Shown piece by piece: positions 590-24,446 of a stretch of DNA of 64,000 nt. The notes below the pieces were generated by a model. It was not told where the DNA came from. It made no database searches and saw only the letters and a list, made by a program, of their open reading frames with translations. Positions within the stretch are counted from its first letter, which is position 1, and each line of letters opens with the position of its first letter. Position numbers and translations under genes: made by a program. Source of the DNA: an uncultured Granulosicoccaceae bacterium (lineage in GTDB: Bacteria > Pseudomonadota > Gammaproteobacteria > CALCKW01); contig CALCKW010000007.1 in the NCBI GenBank assembly GCA_937965695.1, positions 7,106 through 71,105 on the forward strand, read 5' to 3'.

Positions 590-2251
590 TCATCCTGCCC
601 GCAATACCAAGACCAACCAGACAAAAACTCCTGCACCGCCTAACATCAGACTGATACTAGGCGTTGCTTCTCCTGCCAGCTGGGCAAACCCGGCTAAAAG
701 AGTAGCGGACAATACAGCCACTCCGGCACCCATAGCTAACAAACTACTGCGCTGTCCCTTGCCTTGTCGCGTGTTCTCCACGAGCTGCTGCAGTTGAGCG
801 CGTTGCACACCACCTACGTCTTGCTGTTGCTTTAACACCGTGTGAACAAGGCGCGGTAACTCTGGAAGTACTTCTCCCCAACCGGGCGCTTCATCGCGCA
901 ACCTTTTGCCCAATGCTCGGTGTCCCACTTGTTCAGACAACCATCGCTCAATCTGCGGCTTGGCTGTTTTCCAAAGATCCAGTTCGGGGTAAAGCACTCG
1001 GCCTAATCCTTCGATGTGCAGCATTGTTTTTTCAAGCAACACTAATTGCGGCTGTACCTGCATGTTGAATCTGCGGGCCGTCTGGAATAAACGTATAAGC
1101 ACTAAACCAAAAGAGATCTCCGCTAGGGGTTTTTCGAATATGGGCTCACAGACCGTACGAATAGCTGCCTCGAAATCTTCCACACGAGTATCTGCTGGCA
1201 CCCAACCTGTCTCAACATGCAACCGTGCCACCCTGGCGTAATCTCGGTGAAAAAAGGCGACGAGATTTTCTGCCAGATACCGCCGATCGCGCTCGGTCAG
1301 ACTGCCGACAATACCGAAGTCAACCGCGATATATTTAGGTTTATCCGGGTTGCTGACATCAATAAATATGTTGCCAGGGTGCATGTCAGCGTGGAAAAAA
1401 TTGTCTCTGAACACTTGAGTAAAAAAAACTTCAACTCCGCGCTCTGCCAAAGCCAACATATTTACATTCGCCGACTTAAGCGTAGCCATGTCCGAGACTT
1501 GTACGCCATAGATGCGCTCCATCACCAAGACATTCTGACGGGTATAATCCCAAAATATTTCTGGAACGTATAGATTTTCAGAGTCGACGAAATTGCGTCG
1601 TAGCTGCGCTGCATTTGCACCTTCTCGAACGAGATCCAACTCGTCGAAAATAGTTTTCTCAAACTCAGCCACGACCTCTACAGGTCGTAAACGTCGACCA
1701 TCAGGCCAATACTTTTCCGCCAGACGTGCAACGTGGTACATCAACCCTATGTCACGGCGGATTATTTTTTCCATGTCCGGCCGCAGCACTTTGACCACAA
1801 CTTCGCGCCCATCTTTTAGTGTCGCGGCATGGACCTGCGCTATCGACGCGGACGCCAATGGCTCACTCTCAAAACTGCCAAACGCCTCATCAACCGTCTG
1901 GCCCAGCGCATCTTCTATCAGAGTACGAGCTTGGGCGCTGTCAAAGGGAGTGACTTGATCTTGAAGCTTTGCCAGCTCATCAGCTATGTCGTCGGGTAAC
2001 AGGTCACGTCGTGTAGACAGCGTTTGCCCGAGTTTGACGAAGATAGGCCCTAAATCCTCCAGCGCACGGTGCACCCTAACAGCGCGAGGCAGAGCGCGCG
2101 TCTCGCGACTTAGAATACGATCGGGGGCAAACTTAAAGACCAAGCGAAGCGGCCATGCCGCCGGCGCTCGGAATAGCACATCGTCCAAGGCGTAACGAGC
2201 GAGTACGCGCTGGATTGACGCAAAGCGAATTGTCTCACCGACGATACTCAT
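590..2251 (-). CDS. ubiB: Ubiquinone biosynthesis protein kinase UbiB (ABC1/ADCK family)
   Basis: 553 aa with ABC1 kinase-like motifs and C-terminal TM helices. Last gene of a ubiE-ubiJ-ubiB arrangement with 4-nt overlaps. Confidence 0.9.
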
Positions 2252-2844
2252 GACTCTGCTCGCTGCATGCGCACGGTTAAACGGTCTACGCGTTCTCGCA
2301 GTTGGTCAGCTTCCTGCTCCAATTCTCGCCACTCACTTTGGGTGACTAGAACTCGCGCCTCTTCTTGTAAGTACTCTCCTACATCTTCCGCACCCCGTTC
2401 GCGCGTCTGCGATATCCAAGCGCTTAGGCCCCTAGATGCGGTGCCGACTTTATGTGCCAGAGCGTCACCCATAAAGGGCGACAGTTGCTCTTCCCAATCA
2501 CTGGTAAGCACCACTAGCAGCTGTTGTACAAGCCGCGCTAGTTCCATATCGCCCTCTGCCTGCACGCGTCCGTCCAGCAGGGCGTCGTGAGCGGAATCAG
2601 CCAAAGCCATTAAAGCCGGGACATCGGCGCTAAGCTCTAGCTCAGGCTCGGCGTCAAAGTCACTTAGCAATTCAATGCCATTACACAAAATCGCAACGCG
2701 GATCGAGACACTGGGGTTTCGAAGCTCCAGTGCAACCACACCGCCATCACTGGCCGCCAAGAGCTGGAGTGCCTCAGCGTTTTTGCGGATAACTCCGTTG
2801 ATCGCGGCGTTAGCTACCACTGTGACTGGGAAGGGCAGTTGCAT
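2248..2844 (-). CDS. ubiJ: Ubiquinone biosynthesis accessory protein UbiJ (SCP2 domain plus C-terminal coiled coil)
   Basis: 198 aa, position between ubiE and ubiB, and same architecture as E. coli YigP/UbiJ. Start overlaps the ubiE stop. Confidence 0.7.
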
Positions 2845-3602
2845 CAGAGTTTAAAACCCTTATGCAGAGCAACGACACCCGCCGTTAGGTTGTGAAAAAC
2901 CACGCGCTCGAAGGCGACATCTCGCATCATTTTTGCGAGCGTTTCTTGGTCAGGATGTTTGCGAATAGACTCCGCGAGATAGCGGTAGCTCTCTGCATCA
3001 CCAGCGATAAACTTGCCCATCTCTGGCAGTATTTTAAAAGAGTACTGATCATAGATCGTTGCAAATCCTTTGACCGTCGGCTTGGAAAATTCCAACACCA
3101 ACAGACGGCCGCCAGGTTTTAGCACCCGGTACATACTGGCCAAAGCCTTGGATTTGTCGGTGACGTTGCGAAGACCAAATGCGATAGTGATGCAATCAAA
3201 AGTGTTGTCTGCAAATGGCAGTGCTTCAGCATTAACCTGCGCATACTGCAGGTTGCCTAAGATACCTTGATCGATAAGCTTGTCTCGCCCCACTCGCAGC
3301 ATTGAATCGTTAATATCGGCCAGAACGACTTGGCCCGTTGGCCCCACTCGACCTGAAAATTTTGCCGCTAGATCACCCGTGCCACCGGCAAGATCCAATA
3401 CCTTTTGACCTTTGCGTACACCGCTGTGCTGCAGCGTAAATGCTTTCCAAAGGCGATGCACACCAAAAGACATGACATCGTTCATCAAATCATACTTTCC
3501 GGCCACCGAGTGAAAGACATCGGCCACCATACCCGCCTTTTCGTCCGCTTTGACTTCCTGATAACCGAAGTGTGTTGTGTCTTGATTCTCGTTGACTGTC
3601 AT
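2844..3602 (-). CDS. ubiE: Ubiquinone/menaquinone C-methyltransferase UbiE
   Basis: N-terminus [17 protein letters not shown]...[25 protein letters not shown] is classic UbiE, with an SAM-binding motif [10 protein letters not shown]. The ORF track extends to 3656, but the conserved start is the ATG at 3602. Confidence 0.9.
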
Positions 3603-3997
3603 CCGCTCACCCGCTGGTGTCCGGCCTCGGCCAGACGGCCAAGGTAGTCGGCCCAATTGGCCTCTTGTTTCTGGCCCAGCTCGTAGAGATAGTCCCAGCC
3701 ATAAATACCTGAATCGTGTCCGTCGTCAAAAACCAGCTTCACGCCGTAATTGCCGACGGGCTCCACAGCAGTGATGTTGACTTGTTCTTTGCCAACTTGC
3801 AGCACCTCTTGGCCGACACCATGACCTCGCACCTCTGCAGAGGGAGAATACACTCGTAAGTATTCGCAACTCAGCGTACAACTGGTGTCGTCGTCAAAGC
3901 CCAGTACAAGTTGGCGGCTGCTCTGTTGCAGTCGAATTTCGGTAGGTCGAGGCATGCGGGGCAACTCAGCTGTTAAAACGCCCATTCTACCAGCCAA
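3599..3997 (-). CDS. DUF971 (gamma-butyrobetaine hydroxylase-like N-terminal domain) protein
   Basis: 132 aa. The C-x-C...[15 protein letters not shown] pattern is typical of DUF971. Overlaps the ubiE start (ATGA), so probably co-transcribed with the ubi operon. Confidence 0.5.
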
Positions 3998-4217
3998 GCG
4001 GGCAACGAGATACGCGCGATCGATCCTCCTGTTGATTGACGGGCCTCAGGAGCAAAGGTTCGCTTTTAGTTGACGGTGCAAATAAGTTAGCCCAGGAAAA
4101 ACCCTGTCTTTCAAGGGCGAGTGTCGTGCACCCGGGACAAGTCAAAGATCACGACAATAATCAGCTGGCAATGCATAGAAGGGAGACTGCCACAGGCGTG
4201 TGGCAGTCGAAGTGACC

Positions 4218-4673
4218 TCAACTAATTGAAGTGCGCCAGCGGCCATCTTTAAAGCCTTCGAGGACAGACTTCGCTCTACCTTCGTCTAAATTTTGGAAAC
4301 AGCTGCCTGACTTGAAAAAATTGTTTAGCCCTGAAATTTGATCCAAATCTTCGGTCTTAACTTCCGAATAGCCCATTGTCCACTCAGCGAAATCCCGAGA
4401 TTCAATCTCTTCATAGATGATTCTCACAACCCCATTATGGCGGCCATCGAGCTTGAGCTTTTCGAGCAGCGGGTTAACGATGTCGGGGTGACCTTCTAGC
4501 ACTTGAAAAAACGAGCCAGAGTCATACAGCAACATACCAGTCACACCTAACTTTTGGTTATTCTTTCTCGCGACTTCTAACAGCTTAAAGATGTCCTCCT
4601 TAGAGAACTCCACTGTGCTAACACTAGAATAAATGCAGTGGACAAGCGGTTCATTGGCTTCGACATCGTCCAT
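4218..4673 (-). CDS. Short BLUF-domain blue-light photoreceptor
   Basis: 151 aa. IYSSVST...(K)..GVTGMLLYDSGSFFQVLEG matches the BLUF core (conserved Tyr, Gln and flavin-binding strands). No output domain is attached (PixD/BlrB-like). A hairpin follows the stop. Confidence 0.75.
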   Translation of the reverse strand: MDDVEANEPLVHCIYSSVSTVEFSKEDIFKLLEVARKNNQKLGVTGMLLYDSGSFFQVLEGHPDIVNPLLEKLKLDGRHNGVVRIIYEEIESRDFAEWTMGYSEVKTEDLDQISGLNNFFKSGSCFQNLDEGRAKSVLEGFKDGRWRTSIS

Positions 4674-5164
4674 ACTTTTCTCCTACAGAGTTTTGTTGAT
4701 ATTTGGTGTACATCAACCTCTGTGGACTTATGGATCTTGCGGTTGAACGGGTAAGCAGTTAAATAAACCGGCTGCCGCACTGCGCAGAGTTAATGTATGT
4801 ACACAGGCTAACGGCGAATGAAGAACAACCTAGAGCCGCAGAATTGCTAATCCTGTCCAAAATTAGGAAACGTGTAGCCTTGTGTTAAACAACACGACAT
4901 TCATCCTGAGACAGCCGCCAAAAACTTATTCACTGCATCCGCATGGTGTTTTTAAACCGAGATAGTTAGAGACTCGACGGAAATTGCAAAGTTTGTTCAT
5001 TCTGCAGTTCCGCAGTTGTCATTAATCGTGACAAACCGTAGCCTGACGATAAAATCGACTTAAAAATCTGCACTCAACTTTTTGTGCGGTCTGAACACAG
5101 AGCGATCAACGTCGCAAAACCGACAATATAGCGACATATCAGGGGGTATACTCCAAGGTCAGGT

Positions 5165-5325
5165 GCTGTGTACATCACAGATAATTGGGAAGTCGGTGTA
5201 AATCCGACGCTGCCCCCGCAACGGTAAACAGAGAAAGACTCTCATGCCACTGAGCTCAACGCTTGGGAAGGCGAGTCAACAGGTCATCGACCTCTCTCAA
5301 GCCCGGAAACCAGCCTGAACACTCA
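5165..5325 (+). ncRNA. Cobalamin (B12) riboswitch
   Basis: AATTGGGAAGTCGGTGTAAATCCGACGCTGCCCCCGCAACGGTAA ... GCCACTG ... GGGAAGGC ... AGCCCGGAAACCAGCC. These match the conserved core, the GCCACTG element and the B12 box of RF00174-type riboswitches on the + strand. Confidence 0.7.
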
Positions 5326-5436
5326 TCCGAAAAATCGCGGCGGGCGATGGATACGGGCTGTTGCTCTTGGCGACTCCTCATCACTACCCCTGCGACTTCT
5401 CGGTCTTTTGCGTATCAACAGTACGGGGTAAGCACC

Positions 5437-5709
5437 ATGTCTACGCACAAAACCATTCGCAGTAAACGTCGTCGCGCTGTTCAACTCGCTGGCTTAGACG
5501 AGCAACCTAAACCAAACTACGCACGTCCCTCAGCACACGATGCAATCTTTGCATGGCTCTTGTGGCTTCCCAGCGAAGCTGACCCGCGAAAAGAAGCGCT
5601 GCTGGAGCTGGATCGCTTAGCCGCACGCGGCGAATTGCCAGAGCAAGCGAAAGAGCTGCAAAATTTTCTGATAGAAATAGCGTCTAGCGAAGCCCCACCC
5701 ATCCGCTAG
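5437..5709 (+). CDS. Small hypothetical protein (~90 aa) downstream of the B12 riboswitch
   Basis: Only + strand ORF downstream of the riboswitch. An ATG at 5437 gives MSTHKTIRSKRRRAVQ... The track ORF 5263..5709 would begin inside the riboswitch. No family recognised. Confidence 0.35.
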   Translation: MSTHKTIRSKRRRAVQLAGLDEQPKPNYARPSAHDAIFAWLLWLPSEADPRKEALLELDRLAARGELPEQAKELQNFLIEIASSEAPPIR

Positions 5710-5722
5710 ACCGCAATACACG

Positions 5723-5891
5723 CTAGGGAGCCTCATAATAAAGTCCGGTCAGTGACCTCAGCGTAAAAAACCTGGTCCCAGCAAGGCGCGAATCTAAAGC
5801 AAGTGTGATGCTATTGGCTAGATTTGCAACGCGGCTCGGCCGAATTTAGTACGTCGATGGTACGAGCATGGCTTGATCTGAGGGTCCTTAG
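5723..5891. mobile_element. MITE-like intergenic repeat, copy A (169 bp) with 9-bp imperfect TIRs
   Basis: Starts CTAGGGAGC and ends GGTCCTTAG. Its core GGTCAGTGAC..GTAAAAAAYYTGGWCCCAGCAAGGCGC...CATGRCTTGATCTGAGG is shared with copy B at 16912-17005. Copy A carries a ~70-bp internal insertion. Confidence 0.5.
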
Positions 5892-5905
5892 TTAAAGCCT
5901 GCCGC

Positions 5906-6895
5906 TTATCTGGCCGCAGGCATTTTACGAACATGGTGGAAAACGCCAAAAATGACATCCGCCATTTTACCGTAGTCCAGCCTGTCCGCCGTGTCGCTCA
6001 ATGTGTGATAAGCAAAGTTTCGATAGAAAGCCGTGTCTGTCACCATTACTGCTGATTTGCCGTGCGCCCAGAAATTTCGATGGTCCGAGAAATCGATACC
6101 AGGAACGGATCTTGGCGCATTTATCGAATAGACAGGCAGGCTTATTACTTCACTCATGCTCTTTTTTAAGCGTTGTGCCTGCATGGAAAAAATTTGATCG
6201 ACAATAGCAATGTAGTTCCCTGTTAAGGGATAGAGCAGCTTTAACAAGGGCATGGGGTAGGTCTGGCTTCCAGGCTCGTCAGAAAAATAACCAATCATCT
6301 CAAGCGAGATCATCAATTCTACATTTTTAGACTGCTCTGCCAAATATTTTGCAAACACGGCACTGCCCATATTTTCGCTGGCAAAGTACGGTGGCTCTTC
6401 AAGGCTAAAAGCCACCAACATGACGTGGACATTCAGTTTTTGGTTGGCAAGTAAACGCCCCAATTGCAATAGACCTACCACACCACTGGCGTTATCGTCA
6501 GCCGCCGGAAGAGGCCCGGCACTGTCATAGTGAGCACCAATAACAACCAACGGCGCGCCGACGGGTCCATATTCCGCTACAACATTTTTGTATTCCAATC
6601 CGTCAACACTGAAGTTTTGCTGCCAAACGGTACCGCCATGGTCACTAAAATAGTCCGCGACAAATTTAGCGAGCCGATTTAGATTCTCAGGGAAGTGGTG
6701 ACTTCTAGGGAAATAATCTTCTGACAGATGCCGAACCTGCTGTTCTAGTTCAACCACGTCAATGTGTTTGCTCGCATGGCCAAGCGCTACATGTGCCGGA
6801 CTAAATACTGGCCGAGCAACGACGTGCCAAAGCAATACAAGCGCGACTAGCACGATCACTGTAAAACGAAACATCCATTTTCTAATTATTTTCAC
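5906..6895 (-). CDS. M28-family zinc peptidase (aminopeptidase-like) with N-terminal signal/anchor
   Basis: 329 aa with an N-terminal hydrophobic segment. The HYDS...DDNASG...EE region is typical of the M28 metal-binding core. Confidence 0.7.
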   Translation of the reverse strand: MKIIRKWMFRFTVIVLVALVLLWHVVARPVFSPAHVALGHASKHIDVVELEQQVRHLSEDYFPRSHHFPENLNRLAKFVADYFSDHGGTVWQQNFSVDGLEYKNVVAEYGPVGAPLVVIGAHYDSAGPLPAADDNASGVVGLLQLGRLLANQKLNVHVMLVAFSLEEPPYFASENMGSAVFAKYLAEQSKNVELMISLEMIGYFSDEPGSQTYPMPLLKLLYPLTGNYIAIVDQIFSMQAQRLKKSMSEVISLPVYSINAPRSVPGIDFSDHRNFWAHGKSAVMVTDTAFYRNFAYHTLSDTADRLDYGKMADVIFGVFHHVRKMPAAR

Positions 6896-9205: not shown

Positions 9206-10783
9206 ATGAACCTTGCCAAAAGCAAGTATTGGTTGCGTCTGGCAGCCTGGTTTAAGAAGGACAAGGCAATCGTCACCACCGCTGAGAGACACGACACTGC
9301 GCTGATCATACCGCGCAGACGACCTGCACCCAAGAAAGCCCTGCCCGCCACGGCTGCGGCTTGGTCTAAATGGATTCACGGCCTAGAACGCCTGCCCACG
9401 GGTGAGCGTGCGCGTTCGCTAAGTCAGCAGATCAAATTGTTCAACCGCTCCGAGTGCAAACCCGACGCACGATTGGCTGTGGCGAACAAGCTGCAAAGTT
9501 TCTGGCAAGAACGCCTCGGCGATCTCCTGCCAGTGTTTACTGCACAAGACTCTCCGATGACCGCAAATGCGGCACGCGCTTATCACGAATCTCTGAGCAT
9601 GCTGACGGAGCAAAGCTATTGCTTCATGGCCGCATTAGACGACGATGCCAGCCACAATCTATTGACCGATGTACAACGCACCTGGGCTTGCCTAGGCGGT
9701 ATTCGAGCGTTGCGCCAGAAAATAGAAATCTTATTAGACCGCTATCACACTATCCCTGTTGGTTTACTCGGCGATCTTTACAGCCTTTATCGGCTAGCAC
9801 GAAGAGGTGGTTACAACAATTTGCAGCTCAAAAACCACCCCGAGACTGTTGAACATGCCTTCAAACATGCTTTGATGCTGACAGTGGTTGACGCTTGGGG
9901 ATTGCGTCAGGGAGAACTTCGACGCTACAGTGAAAAATTACAACTCTGGTGCAAGGATGTCAGTTTACGCGACCGAGCCAACAAAAGCGGTACCGGCTGC
10001 TACGCCGTAGACCTAAACAGCGACAGCTTACCCGCCGCCTATGAGTTTAGCGACGTTGACCCAAACATTTTTTGGTTAGACACCAGCGAGTTACTCTCTC
10101 AATTGCAAATGAGTTGCGACAGTGCCGTGCGATCTGATGCCGATTCAGAAGCACCTCGCAGCCTTAGCACCGCGACACTAAATCACCTGCACCGCACCTG
10201 GCTGTCTCGACCAGTACGTATGAGCGCACGCGCGCACCGTGCAGATGCGGCTGCGCTTGAGATTGGTTTGAAAGACATTCACAGCCGAATGGAGCACGGT
10301 GTTCGATTTGGATTGCCGCCTAATCCAGAGTGGCAACTCAACAATCAAAGTACCGAAGGCCTAGGACTGATAAAAACTCGCGACACGGCACTACCGCTTC
10401 ATGTAGGAGAACTCGTCGCGGTCAGCGGCCTTAGCCGTGATGGAGGCAACTCAGTTCTACGCATTGGCACCACGCAGTGGTTGCGCTATGACATCGCCGG
10501 AGATCTGCGTTGCGGCATACACCTGATTGCTAATAATGCTCGACCCGTTATCGTCAGCCACAGCGTAGACGGTAGCGAGAACGCCCGCGTCAGCCATGAG
10601 TGCTTGTATGTCTCACCCGAACCCGGAATGGCTTACGCCACATTGATTGCCCCACCGCGTGATTTTGCGGCGGGACAAGTTATCGCTCTGCACCATAACG
10701 GACGAGCGGGAAAAAAATGGCGCCTGACCAGCCAGACACGCCACACAAATTCAGTCGCGTGTTATCGCATGGAACCCATTTAA
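9206..10783 (+). CDS. Hypothetical protein (525 aa)
   Basis: Long ORF with an ATG start and coding-like composition. No confident family. The C-terminal ~120 aa is beta-rich and possibly PilZ-like (weak). Convergent with the T4CP-like gene. Confidence 0.4.
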   Translation: MNLAKSKYWLRLAAWFKKDKAIVTTAERHDTALIIPRRRPAPKKALPATAAAWSKWIHGLERLPTGERARSLSQQIKLFNRSECKPDARLAVANKLQSFWQERLGDLLPVFTAQDSPMTANAARAYHESLSMLTEQSYCFMAALDDDASHNLLTDVQRTWACLGGIRALRQKIEILLDRYHTIPVGLLGDLYSLYRLARRGGYNNLQLKNHPETVEHAFKHALMLTVVDAWGLRQGELRRYSEKLQLWCKDVSLRDRANKSGTGCYAVDLNSDSLPAAYEFSDVDPNIFWLDTSELLSQLQMSCDSAVRSDADSEAPRSLSTATLNHLHRTWLSRPVRMSARAHRADAAALEIGLKDIHSRMEHGVRFGLPPNPEWQLNNQSTEGLGLIKTRDTALPLHVGELVAVSGLSRDGGNSVLRIGTTQWLRYDIAGDLRCGIHLIANNARPVIVSHSVDGSENARVSHECLYVSPEPGMAYATLIAPPRDFAAGQVIALHHNGRAGKKWRLTSQTRHTNSVACYRMEPI

Positions 10784-10789
10784 AGCCGG

Positions 10790-12310
10790 TTACCCACGAC
10801 GTCTGCGTTTCGCATCAAACAACACGATGTTGGCAGCAGGCGGAATCTTGAGCGATTGCGGTTCAAACAAATTAAGCTGGGTGTTTACACGCTTTAAATG
10901 CAGCCGGTTGTCGTCGAAGTGGTTTCTAAACATCGCATCGTTGAGATAGTCCACTTTCTTAAGAATTACCGTGCGCTTGCTACCCTCGTATAAAACCGCC
11001 AACTGGTCGCGCTCCAGCTCCAGTAGCATTTCGCCGTCGACATCCCCAAGTAAAGCTGCATAGTCATTGGCCACCCGCATGTTGCCAGGACCAAAGAGCT
11101 GCAAAGTTGCACAATTATTAAGCAACATTTCCCAGTCCTCGGCGTAGTTTTTTCGCAGTTGACTAAGGTCTTGCCAAAGTGTCCAAACCCGGACACCCAG
11201 CCCGCGCAGCATCGACATCGCCATCGGTAAAGTCTCCACACGGCCAATCGTTCCAGCTTCATCGATCAAGAACAGTGTTCGTTCGTCTGGTGCATGCCTA
11301 CGGGTAGCCAGCGCCATTGTCAGCGCACTGATCCAAAGCCGTAAAAGATTTTTGTGGGAGTGTAACTTGTGGCCAGGGACCACAAAATAAATCGTGAGAG
11401 ACTCGCCGTCGATAATGTGTTGCAACGGAAAACTCGAGAGATCCGTCGCCGCTCTTACAGATTCTGAGCCAAACAGCTGAACGTGATGTTGAGCAGACGA
11501 CTGCACTGATGGCCGAGTTGTGCCCTGCGCATGCTGAAGAAAAGCACTGAACTCCTGCTTAGCTAGCTTGCTTTTAACTTCACCACTGTCCAACAGCTGG
11601 ATTAAGAGCTCGCTAAAATCACTGTCATTGAACATATCCCTAAGTTGACTTATACAACACTTCTCTCTGTCACCACAGGTGGCCAGATGCGCGATCATAC
11701 CGGACAAGATCCCTTTGGCGGTTTCACTCCAAAATGCTTCCTTGTGACAAGATTCGTGACCAACAATCTCGTCAGCTAAACTCATCGCCGCATCGTCTAT
11801 CTCAACATCAGGCAAGAAGAGAATATCCATAGGATTAAACCCCGCAGTTACCTGCCCGCAAACCTTCCAAGGGTCGATACAAATCACTCGATGCCCCATC
11901 TCTTGGCGACGGCGCGATGTAATATGATGTAGTTCGCCTTTGGCATCCATCACAATCATCGGGCCGGTGAACTCTAACAATGCAGGCACAGCGGCACCTC
12001 GAGTTTTACCGGATCCAGTAGGTGCGATGGTTATTAAATGCCCTTCACCGCCCACTTCAAGCAATTCAGGTCTTTGAGGCGATTTTTTTTGGAGATCTTG
12101 GGTGAAGCCTAAGCCACCCCCCGTTTGAGGGATAGTCCAGCCGAGGGGGAGTTCGTCAACAACAAAGGGATATTCATTTTCTTGCACAGTCGTATTCCTT
12201 ATCGGGTGAGTGAGGATACTTAGTGAATGATGCTGGAGGTGTGAGCAATCGCTGGAGCGCCACCTTTGACGATAAACAGCAAAAGCAAACATCTCTAACT
12301 CAGCAATCAC
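10790..12310 (-). CDS. Soluble TraG/VirD4-like type IV coupling protein (T4CP) family ATPase lacking the N-terminal TM domain
   Basis: Walker A HLITIAPTGSGKTRGAAVPALLEFTGPMIVMDAKGEL...RVICIDPW is the TraG/VirD4 signature. Walker B is LFLIDEAGTIGRV. No hydrophobic N-terminus. The start may be GTG 12310 or the RBS-preceded GTG at 12187. Confidence 0.7.
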   Translation of the reverse strand: MIAELEMFAFAVYRQRWRSSDCSHLQHHSLSILTHPIRNTTVQENEYPFVVDELPLGWTIPQTGGGLGFTQDLQKKSPQRPELLEVGGEGHLITIAPTGSGKTRGAAVPALLEFTGPMIVMDAKGELHHITSRRRQEMGHRVICIDPWKVCGQVTAGFNPMDILFLPDVEIDDAAMSLADEIVGHESCHKEAFWSETAKGILSGMIAHLATCGDREKCCISQLRDMFNDSDFSELLIQLLDSGEVKSKLAKQEFSAFLQHAQGTTRPSVQSSAQHHVQLFGSESVRAATDLSSFPLQHIIDGESLTIYFVVPGHKLHSHKNLLRLWISALTMALATRRHAPDERTLFLIDEAGTIGRVETLPMAMSMLRGLGVRVWTLWQDLSQLRKNYAEDWEMLLNNCATLQLFGPGNMRVANDYAALLGDVDGEMLLELERDQLAVLYEGSKRTVILKKVDYLNDAMFRNHFDDNRLHLKRVNTQLNLFEPQSLKIPPAANIVLFDAKRRRRG

Positions 12311-16911: not shown

Positions 16912-17005
16912 CTAGGGAGCTTCAGATTTAGTTCGGTCAGTGACTTTGGTGTGAAAAATTTGGACCCAGCAAGGCGCTAACATGACTTGATCTGAGGTTC
17001 CCTAG
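16912..17005. mobile_element. MITE-like intergenic repeat, copy B (94 bp) with 9-bp TIRs
   Basis: CTAGGGAGC ... GTTCCCTAG, 8 of 9 bases complementary. The internal sequence is homologous to copy A at 5723-5891 without the ~70-bp insert. Confidence 0.5.
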
Positions 17006-17046
17006 TATCTCCACCAAAAAGCTACTGCGTTATCTAAGGCCGCGTT

Positions 17047-23522: not shown

Positions 23523-24446
23523 TTAGTCTTCTTTTTCACGCCGCGCCCTTGGGTGAGCTTTGTCGTATACATCCGCTAGATGCTGAAAATCTAGATGGGT
23601 ATAGATCTGTGTGGTGCTGATGTCCGCGTGACCCAGCAGCTCCTGCACGGCACGCAGGTCACCGCTTGATTCGAGCAAATGCGTCGCAAATGAATGACGC
23701 AACATGTGAGGGTGCACATGCAAAGGTAAGCCACGCTCTTGCGCCATCCTTTTTAGTCGATGTTGAACCGTACGCGCTCCCATACGGTTACCGCGCTGAT
23801 TTACAAACAAAGCTTGCTCATCCGACCTAGCCATGGTCTCTCTCACCGCTATCCAAGCCTTCAATGCACTTAGTGCTTGTCGACCGACAGGCAATTCACG
23901 CTCTTTGCCGCCCTTGCCTACCACCCGCAGCTGAGCATTGTCTTGGTCAACCGTGTCTATATCCAGCCCGATAACTTCCGCTAGACGCAGACCACAGGAG
24001 TAGACCAATTCGAACATGGCTTGATCGCCAAACTCCGGTGCACTCTGGGGCTTACCCGCTAGCAGCTGATCCGCTTGATCGACGGCGAGCACACGAGGCA
24101 GTGGTTTGTCGCGCTTAGGGGCAGCAATGTCTTGAGCGGGGTTGTGCTCAAAAAGACCATGAGTAATCCCGTACTTGTAAAATGAACGGATTGCCGATAG
24201 GCGTCGTGACAGACTGCGAGGTGCTTGCCCACGTCTGTGCCAAGTGGCCACCATGCTGCGAAGCTCTCGACCCGTTAAACTAGTCCAGCCCGCACAATCG
24301 CGCTCTTGCATTAAAGCGATAGCGGCATTGAGGTCACGTTGGTAATTGCTTAAGGTGTGCGGCGAATAGCGCCGCTCTTCGCGCAGGTGGCGAAGATAGT
24401 CCGCCACAGGTGCTAGAGGATCTGAATCCGTCGATGAGACAGGCAT
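23523..24446 (-). CDS. xerC: Tyrosine recombinase XerC
   Basis: The catalytic region HMLRHSFATHLLE...LGHADISTTQIYTHL gives the R..HxxR..Y signature. Sits in the conserved dapF-DUF484-xerC arrangement. Confidence 0.85.
   Translation of the reverse strand: MPVSSTDSDPLAPVADYLRHLREERRYSPHTLSNYQRDLNAAIALMQERDCAGWTSLTGRELRSMVATWHRRGQAPRSLSRRLSAIRSFYKYGITHGLFEHNPAQDIAAPKRDKPLPRVLAVDQADQLLAGKPQSAPEFGDQAMFELVYSCGLRLAEVIGLDIDTVDQDNAQLRVVGKGGKERELPVGRQALSALKAWIAVRETMARSDEQALFVNQRGNRMGARTVQHRLKRMAQERGLPLHVHPHMLRHSFATHLLESSGDLRAVQELLGHADISTTQIYTHLDFQHLADVYDKAHPRARREKED

What the first reader, a model, noticed from the sequence alone, without database searches (positions are those of the whole stretch)
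4218..5709. Short BLUF photoreceptor divergently paired with a cobalamin riboswitch that controls only a ~90-aa unknown ORF
A stand-alone BLUF protein has no output domain and must signal through a partner. 490 bp away on the opposite strand is a well-formed B12 riboswitch (core GGTGTAAATCCGACGCTGCCCCCGCAACGGTAA, GCCACTG, B12 box AGCCCGGAAACCAGCC). Its only downstream gene is a small basic/acidic protein of no recognisable family, rather than a transporter, cobalamin-biosynthesis or B12-independent isozyme gene. B12 is itself a photolabile cofactor, so a light (BLUF) and B12 co-regulated small protein is an attractive candidate partner/antirepressor. The arrangement is not a described module. 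The whole insert lies between the ubi operon and a MITE-like repeat.
Basis: partly seen in the sequence, partly recalled or inferred. Interest (0 to 1): 0.65.

Follow-up and report, generated by a model that had tools for sequence, protein, structure and literature searches.

The report
B12-riboswitch-controlled small protein beside unrelated BLUF
A genuine vitamin-B12 riboswitch here controls a single 90-residue protein from an unannotated family that sat behind a B12 riboswitch in nine of the ten places examined (the tenth could not be checked), while the neighbouring blue-light sensor gene appears to be a chance neighbour.

Summary
There is a 151-aa BLUF gene (4218-4673, -) and a full-length RF00174 cobalamin riboswitch (5144-5332, +; 118.7 bits, cut-off 31.5). 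The riboswitch has one downstream gene, a 90-aa ORF (5437-5709, +).

The ORF is not an orphan. An exhaustive HMMER search plus a profile search found about 27 small proteins (72-102 aa) sharing a core motif, PEDVFLAWLLWLPxGADxxxAAxxEIARL. AlphaFold2 predicts a three-helix bundle behind a disordered basic tail.

- **Riboswitch link:** nine of ten distinct loci have RF00174 upstream on the same strand. The tenth could not be assessed.
- **Contexts:** alone (three loci), or last gene after gbcAB-like genes (four), nrdAB (one) or btu-like transport genes (one), or first before two further genes (one).
- **No BLUF link:** no small-ORF locus has a BLUF gene. No BLUF-homologue locus has the riboswitch or the ORF. 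A syntenic relative keeps ubi-riboswitch-ORF but has a dehydrogenase in place of BLUF.

Most likely this is a new, uncharacterised member of the B12 regulon, translationally repressed by cobalamin and made when B12 is scarce. Its molecular target is unknown. BLUF adjacency is incidental.

The parts
4218..4673 (-). Stand-alone short BLUF photoreceptor gene (151 aa). Adjacent to the riboswitch unit but not part of it.
   Evidence: PF04940 E=1.1e-28. 452 homologues at E<=1e-10, mostly about 151 aa, from Marinomonas, Vibrio, Photobacterium and Halioglobus among others, best 65% identical. Their neighbourhoods vary and carry no riboswitch.
5028..5055 (+). Candidate sigma-70 promoter for the riboswitch transcript (GTGACA-16-TAAAAT). 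A consensus match only.
   Evidence: 10 of 12 matches. The region gave 5 such sites against 2.2 expected, so this is weak evidence.
5144..5332 (+). Cobalamin riboswitch aptamer (RF00174).
   Evidence: 118.7 bits (gathering score 31.5), E=3.8e-29, full model. 75% nucleotide identity to the aptamer at the syntenic locus L011.
5333..5436 (+). Expression platform. It holds a P13-like hairpin at 5334-5348 (loop GGCGG), an anti-SD UACCCC at 5385-5390 and an SD GGGGUA at 5425-5430.
   Evidence: No intrinsic terminator was found on the + strand. The platform is 78% identical to L011, whereas the ORF behind it is only 51% identical at nucleotide level. Two nearly isoenergetic folds exist (-33.7 and -33.5 kcal/mol). 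Enforcing the P13 hairpin pairs the SD completely: its unpaired probability falls from 0.33 to 0.00.
5437..5709 (+). 90-aa protein of an unannotated small-protein family: a disordered basic N-terminal tail (residues 1-32) and a three-helix core (33-83) carrying the AWLLWLP motif.
   Evidence: Exhaustive HMMER search found 8 distant homologues. A profile search found 27, aligned as A3. Closest full-length relative is P0150, 56% identical over 85 aa, sharing the MSTH N-terminus. AF2: mean pLDDT 78.6, core above 90, helices 33-43, 50-64 and 69-83. dN/dS is 0.27 for the core in a Phyllobacterium pair.
5725..5893 (.). MITE-like repeat downstream of the ORF. Not shown to be functionally linked.
   Evidence: The 51-nt core at 5742-5792 is 80% identical to 16930-16980. 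Ends CTAGGGA...TCCCTAG are visible in both copies.

Best explanation
The locus holds two independent units.

(1) A short BLUF blue-light sensor gene.

(2) A cobalamin riboswitch that controls translation of a single 90-aa protein. This protein belongs to a previously unannotated family of small three-helix proteins that forms part of the cobalamin-riboswitch regulon of Alpha- and Gammaproteobacteria.

Shown:
- The aptamer is canonical.
- The protein family is real and under purifying selection.
- Its gene lies behind an RF00174 riboswitch in every locus that could be assessed. It is either alone or translationally coupled to the last gene of operons that replace B12-dependent enzymes (gbcAB-like, nrdAB) or resemble B12/iron-complex uptake operons (btuBFCD-like).

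Inferred mechanism:
- When cobalamin is plentiful, the ligand-bound aptamer stabilises the P13-like hairpin (5334-5348), probably through an L5-L13 kissing loop.
- This frees the anti-SD UACCCC (5385-5390) to pair with the SD GGGGUA (5425-5430), and translation is blocked.
- When cobalamin is scarce, the SD is open and the protein is made.

Inferred function: the protein acts in trans through protein-protein contacts of its hydrophobic WLLWLP helix. It would form part of the switch to low-B12 physiology and is not the subunit of one particular enzyme. The best candidate partner is MetH or the B12-dependent/independent enzyme pairs, because metH lies within about 2 kb in 4 of 10 loci.

The confidence given applies to the two-unit reading and to B12-regulon membership of the small protein. 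Confidence in the specific platform model is about 0.5, and in any specific molecular target about 0.25.
For: - **Riboswitch:**
- **Family:**. No Pfam, NCBIfam or PDB relative.
- **Fold:**. Foldseek found nothing significant in the PDB.
- **RF00174 upstream on the same strand, 9 of 9 assessable distinct loci:**
  - window
  - L008, L009, L010, L011, L012/L013
  - L014, L016
  - L017
  - Background rate: 1 hit in the 64-kb window and 0 in 55.6 kb of BLUF loci.
- **Operon types:**
  - GbcA/GbcB-like genes then the small ORF, with start and stop 2 nt apart or overlapping.
  - nrdA-nrdB then the small ORF, whose ATG overlaps the end of nrdB.
  - TonB receptor, Peripla_BP_2, FecCD, ABC and Peripla_BP_2 genes, then the small ORF.
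  - Stand-alone (window, L011, L008).
- **A natural deletion:** L008 equals L017 minus nrdAB. The nrdA leader and first codons are fused in frame to the small-ORF core, so the ORF stays under the riboswitch.
- **Leader more conserved than the protein:** between the window and L011 the leader is 78% identical and the ORF 51% at nucleotide level, while UbiE is 91% identical as protein.
- **SD sequestration model:**
- **Published precedent:** gbcAB is a Cbl-riboswitch-controlled, B12-independent isozyme (bioRxiv 10.64898/2025.12.19.695462), and so is nrdAB (PMC12528414).
Against: - No experiment or homology gives the protein a biochemical activity, so the molecular target is a guess.
- The protein evolves fast: 33% identity between the window and L011, where UbiE is 91%. 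Orthology between those two copies is uncertain.
- Only ten distinct contexts could be retrieved, and several come from metagenome bins.
- L015 could not be tested for a riboswitch because the operon start lies outside the fetched DNA.
- The platform model rests on thermodynamic folding of two nearly identical sequences. There is no covariation support, and overall folding z-scores are unremarkable.
- Tight coupling to gbcB and nrdB would equally fit an enzyme-specific accessory role.
- metH adjacency may simply reflect general clustering of B12-related genes.
Confidence: 0.75

Rival explanations
1. The small protein is the signalling partner or antirepressor of the adjacent short BLUF protein, so its level (set by B12) and its activity (set by blue light) are integrated at this locus.
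For: The two genes are physically adjacent and divergent, 470 nt apart. Short BLUF proteins do need partners (established knowledge: PixD-PixE, PapB-PapA, BlsA). AdoCbl is photolabile. The small protein looks like a protein-protein interaction module.
Against: There is no co-occurrence outside this window.
- 0 of 5 distinct BLUF-homologue neighbourhoods (six loci) have the riboswitch or a family member.
- 0 of 9 other small-ORF loci have BLUF.
- Syntenic L011 keeps the riboswitch and ORF without BLUF.
- No paper in the library links BLUF with cobalamin riboswitches.
Confidence: 0.04
2. The protein is a dedicated accessory or maturation factor for the O2- and iron-dependent enzymes that substitute for B12 enzymes (GbcAB-like Rieske oxygenase, class Ia RNR). 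Stand-alone copies would serve enzymes encoded elsewhere in the genome.
For: It is translationally coupled to gbcB-like reductase genes in four loci and to nrdB in one. Both upstream partners are iron or electron-transfer proteins.
Against: - It also follows a periplasmic-binding-protein gene in a btu-like transport operon.
- In four loci it is the first gene behind the riboswitch: alone in the window, L011 and L008, and followed by two further genes in L012.
- In L008 nrdAB was deleted yet the ORF stayed intact under the riboswitch.
- There are no conserved Cys or His residues for metal or cluster handling.
Confidence: 0.22
3. The protein is a nucleic-acid-binding regulator, with a basic tail and a helical bundle. 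It would feed back on B12-regulon transcripts or promoters.
For: The N-terminus is Arg/Lys-rich (KRRR). The weak top Foldseek hits include phage and plasmid transcriptional regulators (E>=4.7, not significant).
Against: The basic tail is not conserved outside the gammaproteobacterial subgroup, and in L008 it is replaced by NrdA's first residues. The helix lengths (11, 15 and 15 residues) do not suggest a helix-turn-helix (my reading of the model). No significant structural or sequence match exists.
Confidence: 0.12
4. The riboswitch is an orphan left behind by gene loss, and the 90-aa ORF is non-functional or fortuitous.
For: The ORF has no homologue in the word-indexed search other than itself. 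It evolves quickly. The L008 arrangement did arise by deletion.
Against: - A 27-member family shares a conserved motif.
- A full-length relative is 56% identical.
- dN/dS is 0.27.
- AF2 gives a confident fold from the family alignment.
- The SD and ATG context is conserved in four loci.
- No gene remnants lie between 5333 and 5906.
Confidence: 0.04

Closest known systems
Cobalamin-riboswitch-controlled B12-independent isozyme operons: metE, nrdAB (P. aeruginosa, PMC12528414) and gbcAB (Phaeobacter inhibens, bioRxiv 10.64898/2025.12.19.695462)
   Same: The same RF00174 aptamer sits in the 5' leader, with genes repressed when cobalamin is available. In five related loci the small ORF is the last gene of exactly such operons (gbcAB-like, nrdAB).
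   Different: In the window the riboswitch controls only the small protein. That protein has no enzyme, transporter or biosynthesis domain. In the passages searched, the gbcAB preprint does not mention a third small gene.
E. coli btuB riboswitch (translational control by RBS sequestration with an L5-L13 kissing loop)
   Same: It belongs to the same family. No intrinsic terminator is present. A G-rich hairpin loop lies directly after the aptamer and could kiss the C-rich L5, and an anti-SD/SD helix is present.
   Different: The regulated gene differs. The platform architecture here is inferred from folding only and has not been probed.
Short BLUF photoreceptors with separate partners (PixD-PixE, PapB-PapA, BlsA; AppA-PpsR)
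   Same: The window's BLUF protein is a short BLUF with intact photocycle residues and a roughly 50-aa C-terminal extension. It must signal through a partner.
   Different: No partner gene is identifiable here. The small riboswitch-controlled protein does not co-occur with BLUF in any other locus.
Mycobacterium tuberculosis B12 riboswitch upstream of ppe2 (PMC11260477)
   Same: It is a precedent for a cobalamin riboswitch governing a gene of uncertain, non-canonical function, with translation-level control.
   Different: The protein is unrelated, the organism is different, and that riboswitch is atypical and works through a uORF.

Membership tests
Cobalamin riboswitch (Rfam RF00174) | Covariance-model score at or above the curated gathering score, over the full model | tested here: met
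   118.7 bits against 31.5; model positions 1-189 of 189.
Cobalamin riboswitch (Rfam RF00174) | Conserved B12 box and core motifs | tested here: met
   GCCACUG and AGCCCGGAAACCAGCC align to the consensus and are visible.
Cobalamin riboswitch (Rfam RF00174) | Located in the 5' leader of a same-strand gene, with an expression platform able to occlude the RBS or terminate transcription | tested here: met
   The aptamer ends 104 nt before the ATG at 5437. An anti-SD/SD helix is predicted and no terminator was found. Regulation itself has not been shown.
Cobalamin riboswitch (Rfam RF00174) | Binds a corrinoid and changes gene expression | not testable with these tools
   Needs in-line probing, ITC or reporter assays.
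BLUF domain (PF04940) | Profile match above the gathering score across the whole domain | tested here: met
   99.7 bits against 25; profile positions 1-92 of 92.
BLUF domain (PF04940) | Photocycle residues Tyr, Gln and Met/Trp (AppA Y21, Q63, W104, M106; from established knowledge) | tested here: met
   CIYSS, FFQVLEG and AEWTMGY were read directly from the translation. No formal alignment to AppA was made.
BLUF-plus-partner gene module (e.g. PixD-PixE, PapB-PapA) | Recurrent genomic co-occurrence of the BLUF gene with the proposed partner gene | tested here: not met
   0 of 5 distinct BLUF-homologue neighbourhoods carry the small ORF or riboswitch. 0 of 9 other small-ORF loci carry BLUF.
New small-protein family (provisional: Cbl-riboswitch-associated WLLWLP protein) | Match to the family profile with the core motif AWLLWLP...A...E..R | tested here: met
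   E=3.7e-25 against profile A1. 79.8 bits against the A3 HMM. W40, L41, L44, P45, A54 and L77 are invariant or nearly so.
New small-protein family (provisional: Cbl-riboswitch-associated WLLWLP protein) | Gene lies in a transcription unit headed by RF00174 | tested here: met
   9 of 9 assessable distinct loci, including the window.
Canonical B12-regulon classes (transporter, cobalamin biosynthesis, B12-independent isozyme) | Recognisable transporter, biosynthetic or enzyme domain | tested here: not met
   No Pfam, NCBIfam or PDB match for the protein or the family. No hydrophobic segment long enough to span a membrane, and no conserved Cys or His.

The most novel reading that the evidence does not exclude
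The small protein is a dedicated effector of B12 starvation. It would be a trans-acting three-helix adaptor, made only when the riboswitch is unliganded, that binds MetH or another B12-dependent enzyme or regulator. Its role would be to reallocate or spare scarce cobalamin, or to license the B12-independent isozymes. This would make it a protein-level output of a riboswitch regulon that has so far been thought to consist only of transporters, biosynthetic enzymes and isozymes.
Probability: 0.25. Interest if true: 0.75.

Novelty: new variant of a known kind. Interest (0 to 1): 0.5.

Why it matters
Cobalamin riboswitch regulons are used to predict B12 physiology in genomes and in marine and soil microbiomes. 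They are thought to contain transporters, biosynthetic genes and B12-independent isozymes.

This work points to a conserved small non-enzymatic protein that:
- repeatedly rides at the 3' end of such operons (nrdAB, gbcAB-like, btu-like);
- in several lineages has a whole riboswitch to itself;
- stays under riboswitch control even after the enzyme genes are deleted.

That pattern suggests an unrecognised component of the low-B12 response. The hypothesis is cheap to test with a reporter, a deletion and a pull-down. It could also explain phenotypes in the recently described switch between MtgBCD and GbcAB.

The work also removes a tempting but unsupported light-plus-B12 story from the candidate list.

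Tried and rejected
- **Word-indexed homology search of the ORF.** It found only the ORF itself. The exhaustive HMMER search was needed.
- **The search for related loci.** A2 on genome contigs gave one locus. A2 and A5 on metagenome contigs gave nothing.
- **tblastn of family members against plasmids.** P0140, P0134 and P0148 gave no hit. P0129 gave the informative Phyllobacterium replicon, but its record carries no annotation.
- **Profile against PDB sequences and Pfam.** Only chance-level hits.
- **A recurrent small neighbour of BLUF homologues.** DUF2164 lies next to BLUF in L005 and L006 and 4.7 kb away in L007. It is absent from the window and unrelated to the small ORF.
- **Relation of other small ORFs next to BLUF homologues to the family.** The 88-aa ORF after BLUF in L002 and the 87-aa ORF in L004 are not related to it.
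- **Whole-leader folding.** The z-scores are unremarkable (-1.28 and -0.70), so the platform model rests on constrained folding only.
- **The TTG start at 5263 (148 aa).** Rejected because it lies inside the aptamer.
- **Twin-arginine signal reading of KRRRAVQL.** Rejected because no hydrophobic h-region follows (read directly from the sequence).
Full report
**1. What is in the sequence**

The stretch 4218-5709 contains three real features.
- ORF 4218-4673 on the minus strand encodes a 151-aa protein. It matches the whole BLUF profile (PF04940, E=1.1e-28). Read directly, it keeps the photocycle residues (CIYSS, FFQVLEG, AEWTMGY).
- On the plus strand, Rfam finds one family in the whole 64-kb window. 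This is a full-length cobalamin riboswitch aptamer at 5144-5332, at 118.7 bits against a gathering score of 31.5 (E=3.8e-29).
- A 90-codon ORF follows, from the ATG at 5437 to the stop at 5709, with GGGG 8 nt before the ATG.

The next gene is a convergent M28 peptidase (5906-6895, -), then hslU and hslV. To the left lie DUF971/GBBH-like_N, ubiE, an SCP2 (ubiJ-like) gene and ubiB. The ORF has no Pfam or NCBIfam match.

**2. The small ORF is not an orphan**

The word-indexed search found only the ORF itself. Exhaustive HMMER against 1.84 billion cluster representatives found eight distant relatives of 43-102 aa. A profile built from them recovered 27 proteins of 72-102 aa. All are unnamed or 'hypothetical'. 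They include Inquilinus limosus, Afifella pfennigii and a Bauldia bin.

The alignment shows a core motif, PEDVFLAWLLWLPxGADxxxAAxxEIARL...RLRxL. L44, P45 and A54 are invariant. W40, L41 and L77 are nearly so. There is no conserved Cys or His.

A gammaproteobacterial subgroup also shares the N-terminus MSTH...KRR...SEQPxP. The closest full-length relative, P0150, is 56% identical over 85 residues from the first Met. This supports the ATG at 5437.

Between two Phyllobacterium copies the 59-codon core has dN/dS = 0.27.

AlphaFold2 with the family alignment gives a disordered N-terminal tail and three helices (33-43, 50-64, 69-83), with core pLDDT above 90. Foldseek against the PDB, a profile search of PDB sequences and Pfam scans of all members gave nothing significant.

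**3. Where the family's genes sit**

I retrieved ten distinct loci, counting the window. Nine have RF00174 upstream on the same strand, at 81-128 bits. The tenth, L015, could not be assessed.

| Locus | Source | Arrangement |
|---|---|---|
| window | this sequence | riboswitch, small ORF alone |
| L011 | metagenome, syntenic with the window | riboswitch, small ORF alone |
| L008 | Phyllobacterium bin | riboswitch, small ORF, then metH 100 nt downstream |
| L012/L013 | Bauldia-type | riboswitch, small ORF, weak DUF2946-like protein, cytochrome c |
| L009, L010, L016 | metagenomes | riboswitch, Rieske oxygenase, reductase, small ORF |
| L014 | Inquilinus | as above, followed by cobF |
| L017 | Phyllobacterium sp. 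A18/5-2, 1.59-Mb replicon | riboswitch, nrdA, nrdB, small ORF |
| L015 | Afifella | TonB receptor, Peripla_BP_2, FecCD, ABC and Peripla_BP_2 genes, small ORF, DUF1289 |

Further details:
- In the Rieske/reductase loci the small ORF's start lies 2 nt after the reductase stop or overlaps it.
- The two enzymes are GbcA/GbcB-like, at 515-519 and 374 bits. Both are below the equivalog cut-offs.
- metH lies immediately upstream in L009 and L016.
- In L017 the small ORF's ATG overlaps the end of nrdB.
- In L015 the operon start lies outside the fetched DNA, so no riboswitch test was possible.

For scale, RF00174 occurs once in the 64-kb window and not at all in 55.6 kb of unrelated control loci.

Both gbcAB and nrdAB are documented cobalamin-riboswitch-controlled, B12-independent substitutes for B12 enzymes (bioRxiv 10.64898/2025.12.19.695462; PMC12528414). 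In the passages searched, the gbcAB preprint does not mention a third small gene.

**4. A natural deletion**

L008 and L017 are collinear, except that L008 lacks L017 positions 950-5030 and a RES-Xre toxin-antitoxin gene. The deletion removed nrdAB. It fused the nrdA leader and first codons in frame to the core of the small ORF.

The small protein therefore remains directly under the riboswitch, with a new N-terminal tail. This shows how a stand-alone arrangement can arise. It also suggests that the core matters more than the tail. It is compatible with selection for keeping the protein cobalamin-regulated, though it does not prove this.

**5. The BLUF hypothesis**

BLUF homologues are abundant: 452 at E<=1e-10, with the best 65% identical, from Marinomonas, Vibrio, Photobacterium, Halioglobus and many metagenomes. 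Five distinct neighbourhoods (six loci, L002-L007) have no conserved neighbour, no RF00174 and no match to the family HMM in any frame. Conversely, none of the other nine small-ORF loci has a BLUF gene.

The most telling case is L011. It shares ubiB-ubiJ-ubiE-DUF971 with the window (UbiE 91% and DUF971 89% identical as protein). It also shares the riboswitch plus leader (blastn 83% over window 5178-5449). However, it has a short-chain dehydrogenase where the window has BLUF, and an LRR protein where the window has the M28 peptidase.

The riboswitch-ORF unit is thus anchored next to the ubi operon in this lineage, and its other neighbours vary. No paper in the library connects BLUF with cobalamin riboswitches. 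I conclude that the adjacency is incidental.

**6. How the switch probably works (inferred)**

No intrinsic terminator lies between the aptamer and the ATG. The leader is better conserved between the window and L011 (78% nt) than the ORF behind it (51% nt, 33% aa).

- Directly after the aptamer is a hairpin, AUCGC-GGCGG-GCGAU (5334-5348). Its G-rich loop is complementary to the C-rich L5 loop (GCCCCCGC). From general knowledge of btuB-type riboswitches, this fits an L5-L13 kissing loop.
- Further on, UACCCC (5385-5390) can pair either with the G-run of that hairpin region or with the SD GGGGUA (5425-5430).
- The two folds are nearly isoenergetic (-33.7 and -33.5 kcal/mol).
- Enforcing the hairpin drops the unpaired probability of the SD from 0.33 to 0.00, and of the AUG from 0.79 to 0.35.

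This is a reasonable translational OFF-switch model. It has no covariation support, and whole-leader folding z-scores are unremarkable.

**7. What the protein may do**

The gene is attached to four different kinds of riboswitch unit and in several lineages has a riboswitch of its own. The common denominator is therefore the regulation (made only when cobalamin is scarce), not a particular enzyme.

This favours a general trans-acting role in low-B12 physiology over a subunit or maturase role for GbcAB or NrdAB. Tight translational coupling keeps the latter alive as a rival. metH lies within about 2 kb in four of ten loci, in two different operon types, which makes MetH the best single candidate partner. 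None of this has been shown.

**8. Verdict**

What remains is an ordinary short BLUF gene beside an ordinary cobalamin riboswitch. That riboswitch controls a member of an unannotated, conserved small-protein family which appears to be an unrecognised part of the B12 regulon.

This is of moderate interest and easily testable. I cannot exclude that regulon catalogues outside the searched library already list these genes as hypothetical.

Noticed in passing
window 5725-5893 and 16913-17010: A short MITE-like element with terminal inverted repeats CTAGGGA...TCCCTAG. The copy after the small ORF is about 170 nt and carries an internal insertion relative to the roughly 98-nt second copy. A 51-nt core is 80% identical between them.
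   Followed up: partly
L008 4595-5206 versus L017 564-5230: One Phyllobacterium genome has riboswitch-nrdA-nrdB-small ORF. The other has a clean deletion of nrdAB that fuses the nrdA leader and first codons in frame to the small-ORF core. It also lacks the RES-Xre gene (L017 5236-6135, -).
   Followed up: yes
L009 1449-3998, L010 1589-4004, L014 1628-3998, L016 1644-3998: The riboswitch-controlled Rieske oxygenase and reductase pairs are GbcA/GbcB-like but score below NCBIfam's equivalog cut-offs (515-519 against 670; 374 against 500). They may be a divergent clade, or may act on a different N-methylated substrate. They sit next to metH (L009, L016), a cobW-like gene (L010) or cobF (L014).
   Followed up: partly
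L005 5539-5784, L006 1693-1938, L007 7321-7563: An 80-81-aa DUF2164 protein lies directly downstream of BLUF homologues in L005 and L006 (the same neighbourhood recovered from two samples) and 4.7 kb away in L007. It is a possible recurrent BLUF neighbour. It is absent from the window.
   Followed up: partly
L012 about 3890-4001: Between the riboswitch and the small ORF of the Bauldia-type locus there is a 19-codon uORF (MDADRDMAGRPVRAGRREA). Its stop overlaps the main ORF's start region. This was read by hand from the alignment and may be chance in GC-rich DNA.
   Followed up: no
window 9206-12310 and 23523-24446: A 525-aa ORF has no Pfam match. It lies next to a type IV secretion coupling protein (TraG/TrwB-like, 10790-12310, -). 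A tyrosine recombinase of the XerC/D type is at 23523-24446.
   Followed up: no
L005 7588-7670, L006 3742-3824: Rfam 'Pseudomonas sRNA P9' (RF00624, 57.3 bits) lies about 2 kb downstream of a BLUF homologue in a metagenomic gammaproteobacterial contig.
   Followed up: no
window 5437-5709 versus L011 4001-4264: The small protein is only 33% identical between two genomes whose UbiE is 91% identical, while the riboswitch leader is 78% identical at nucleotide level. Either the protein evolves unusually fast or the ORF has been replaced behind a conserved leader.
   Followed up: partly
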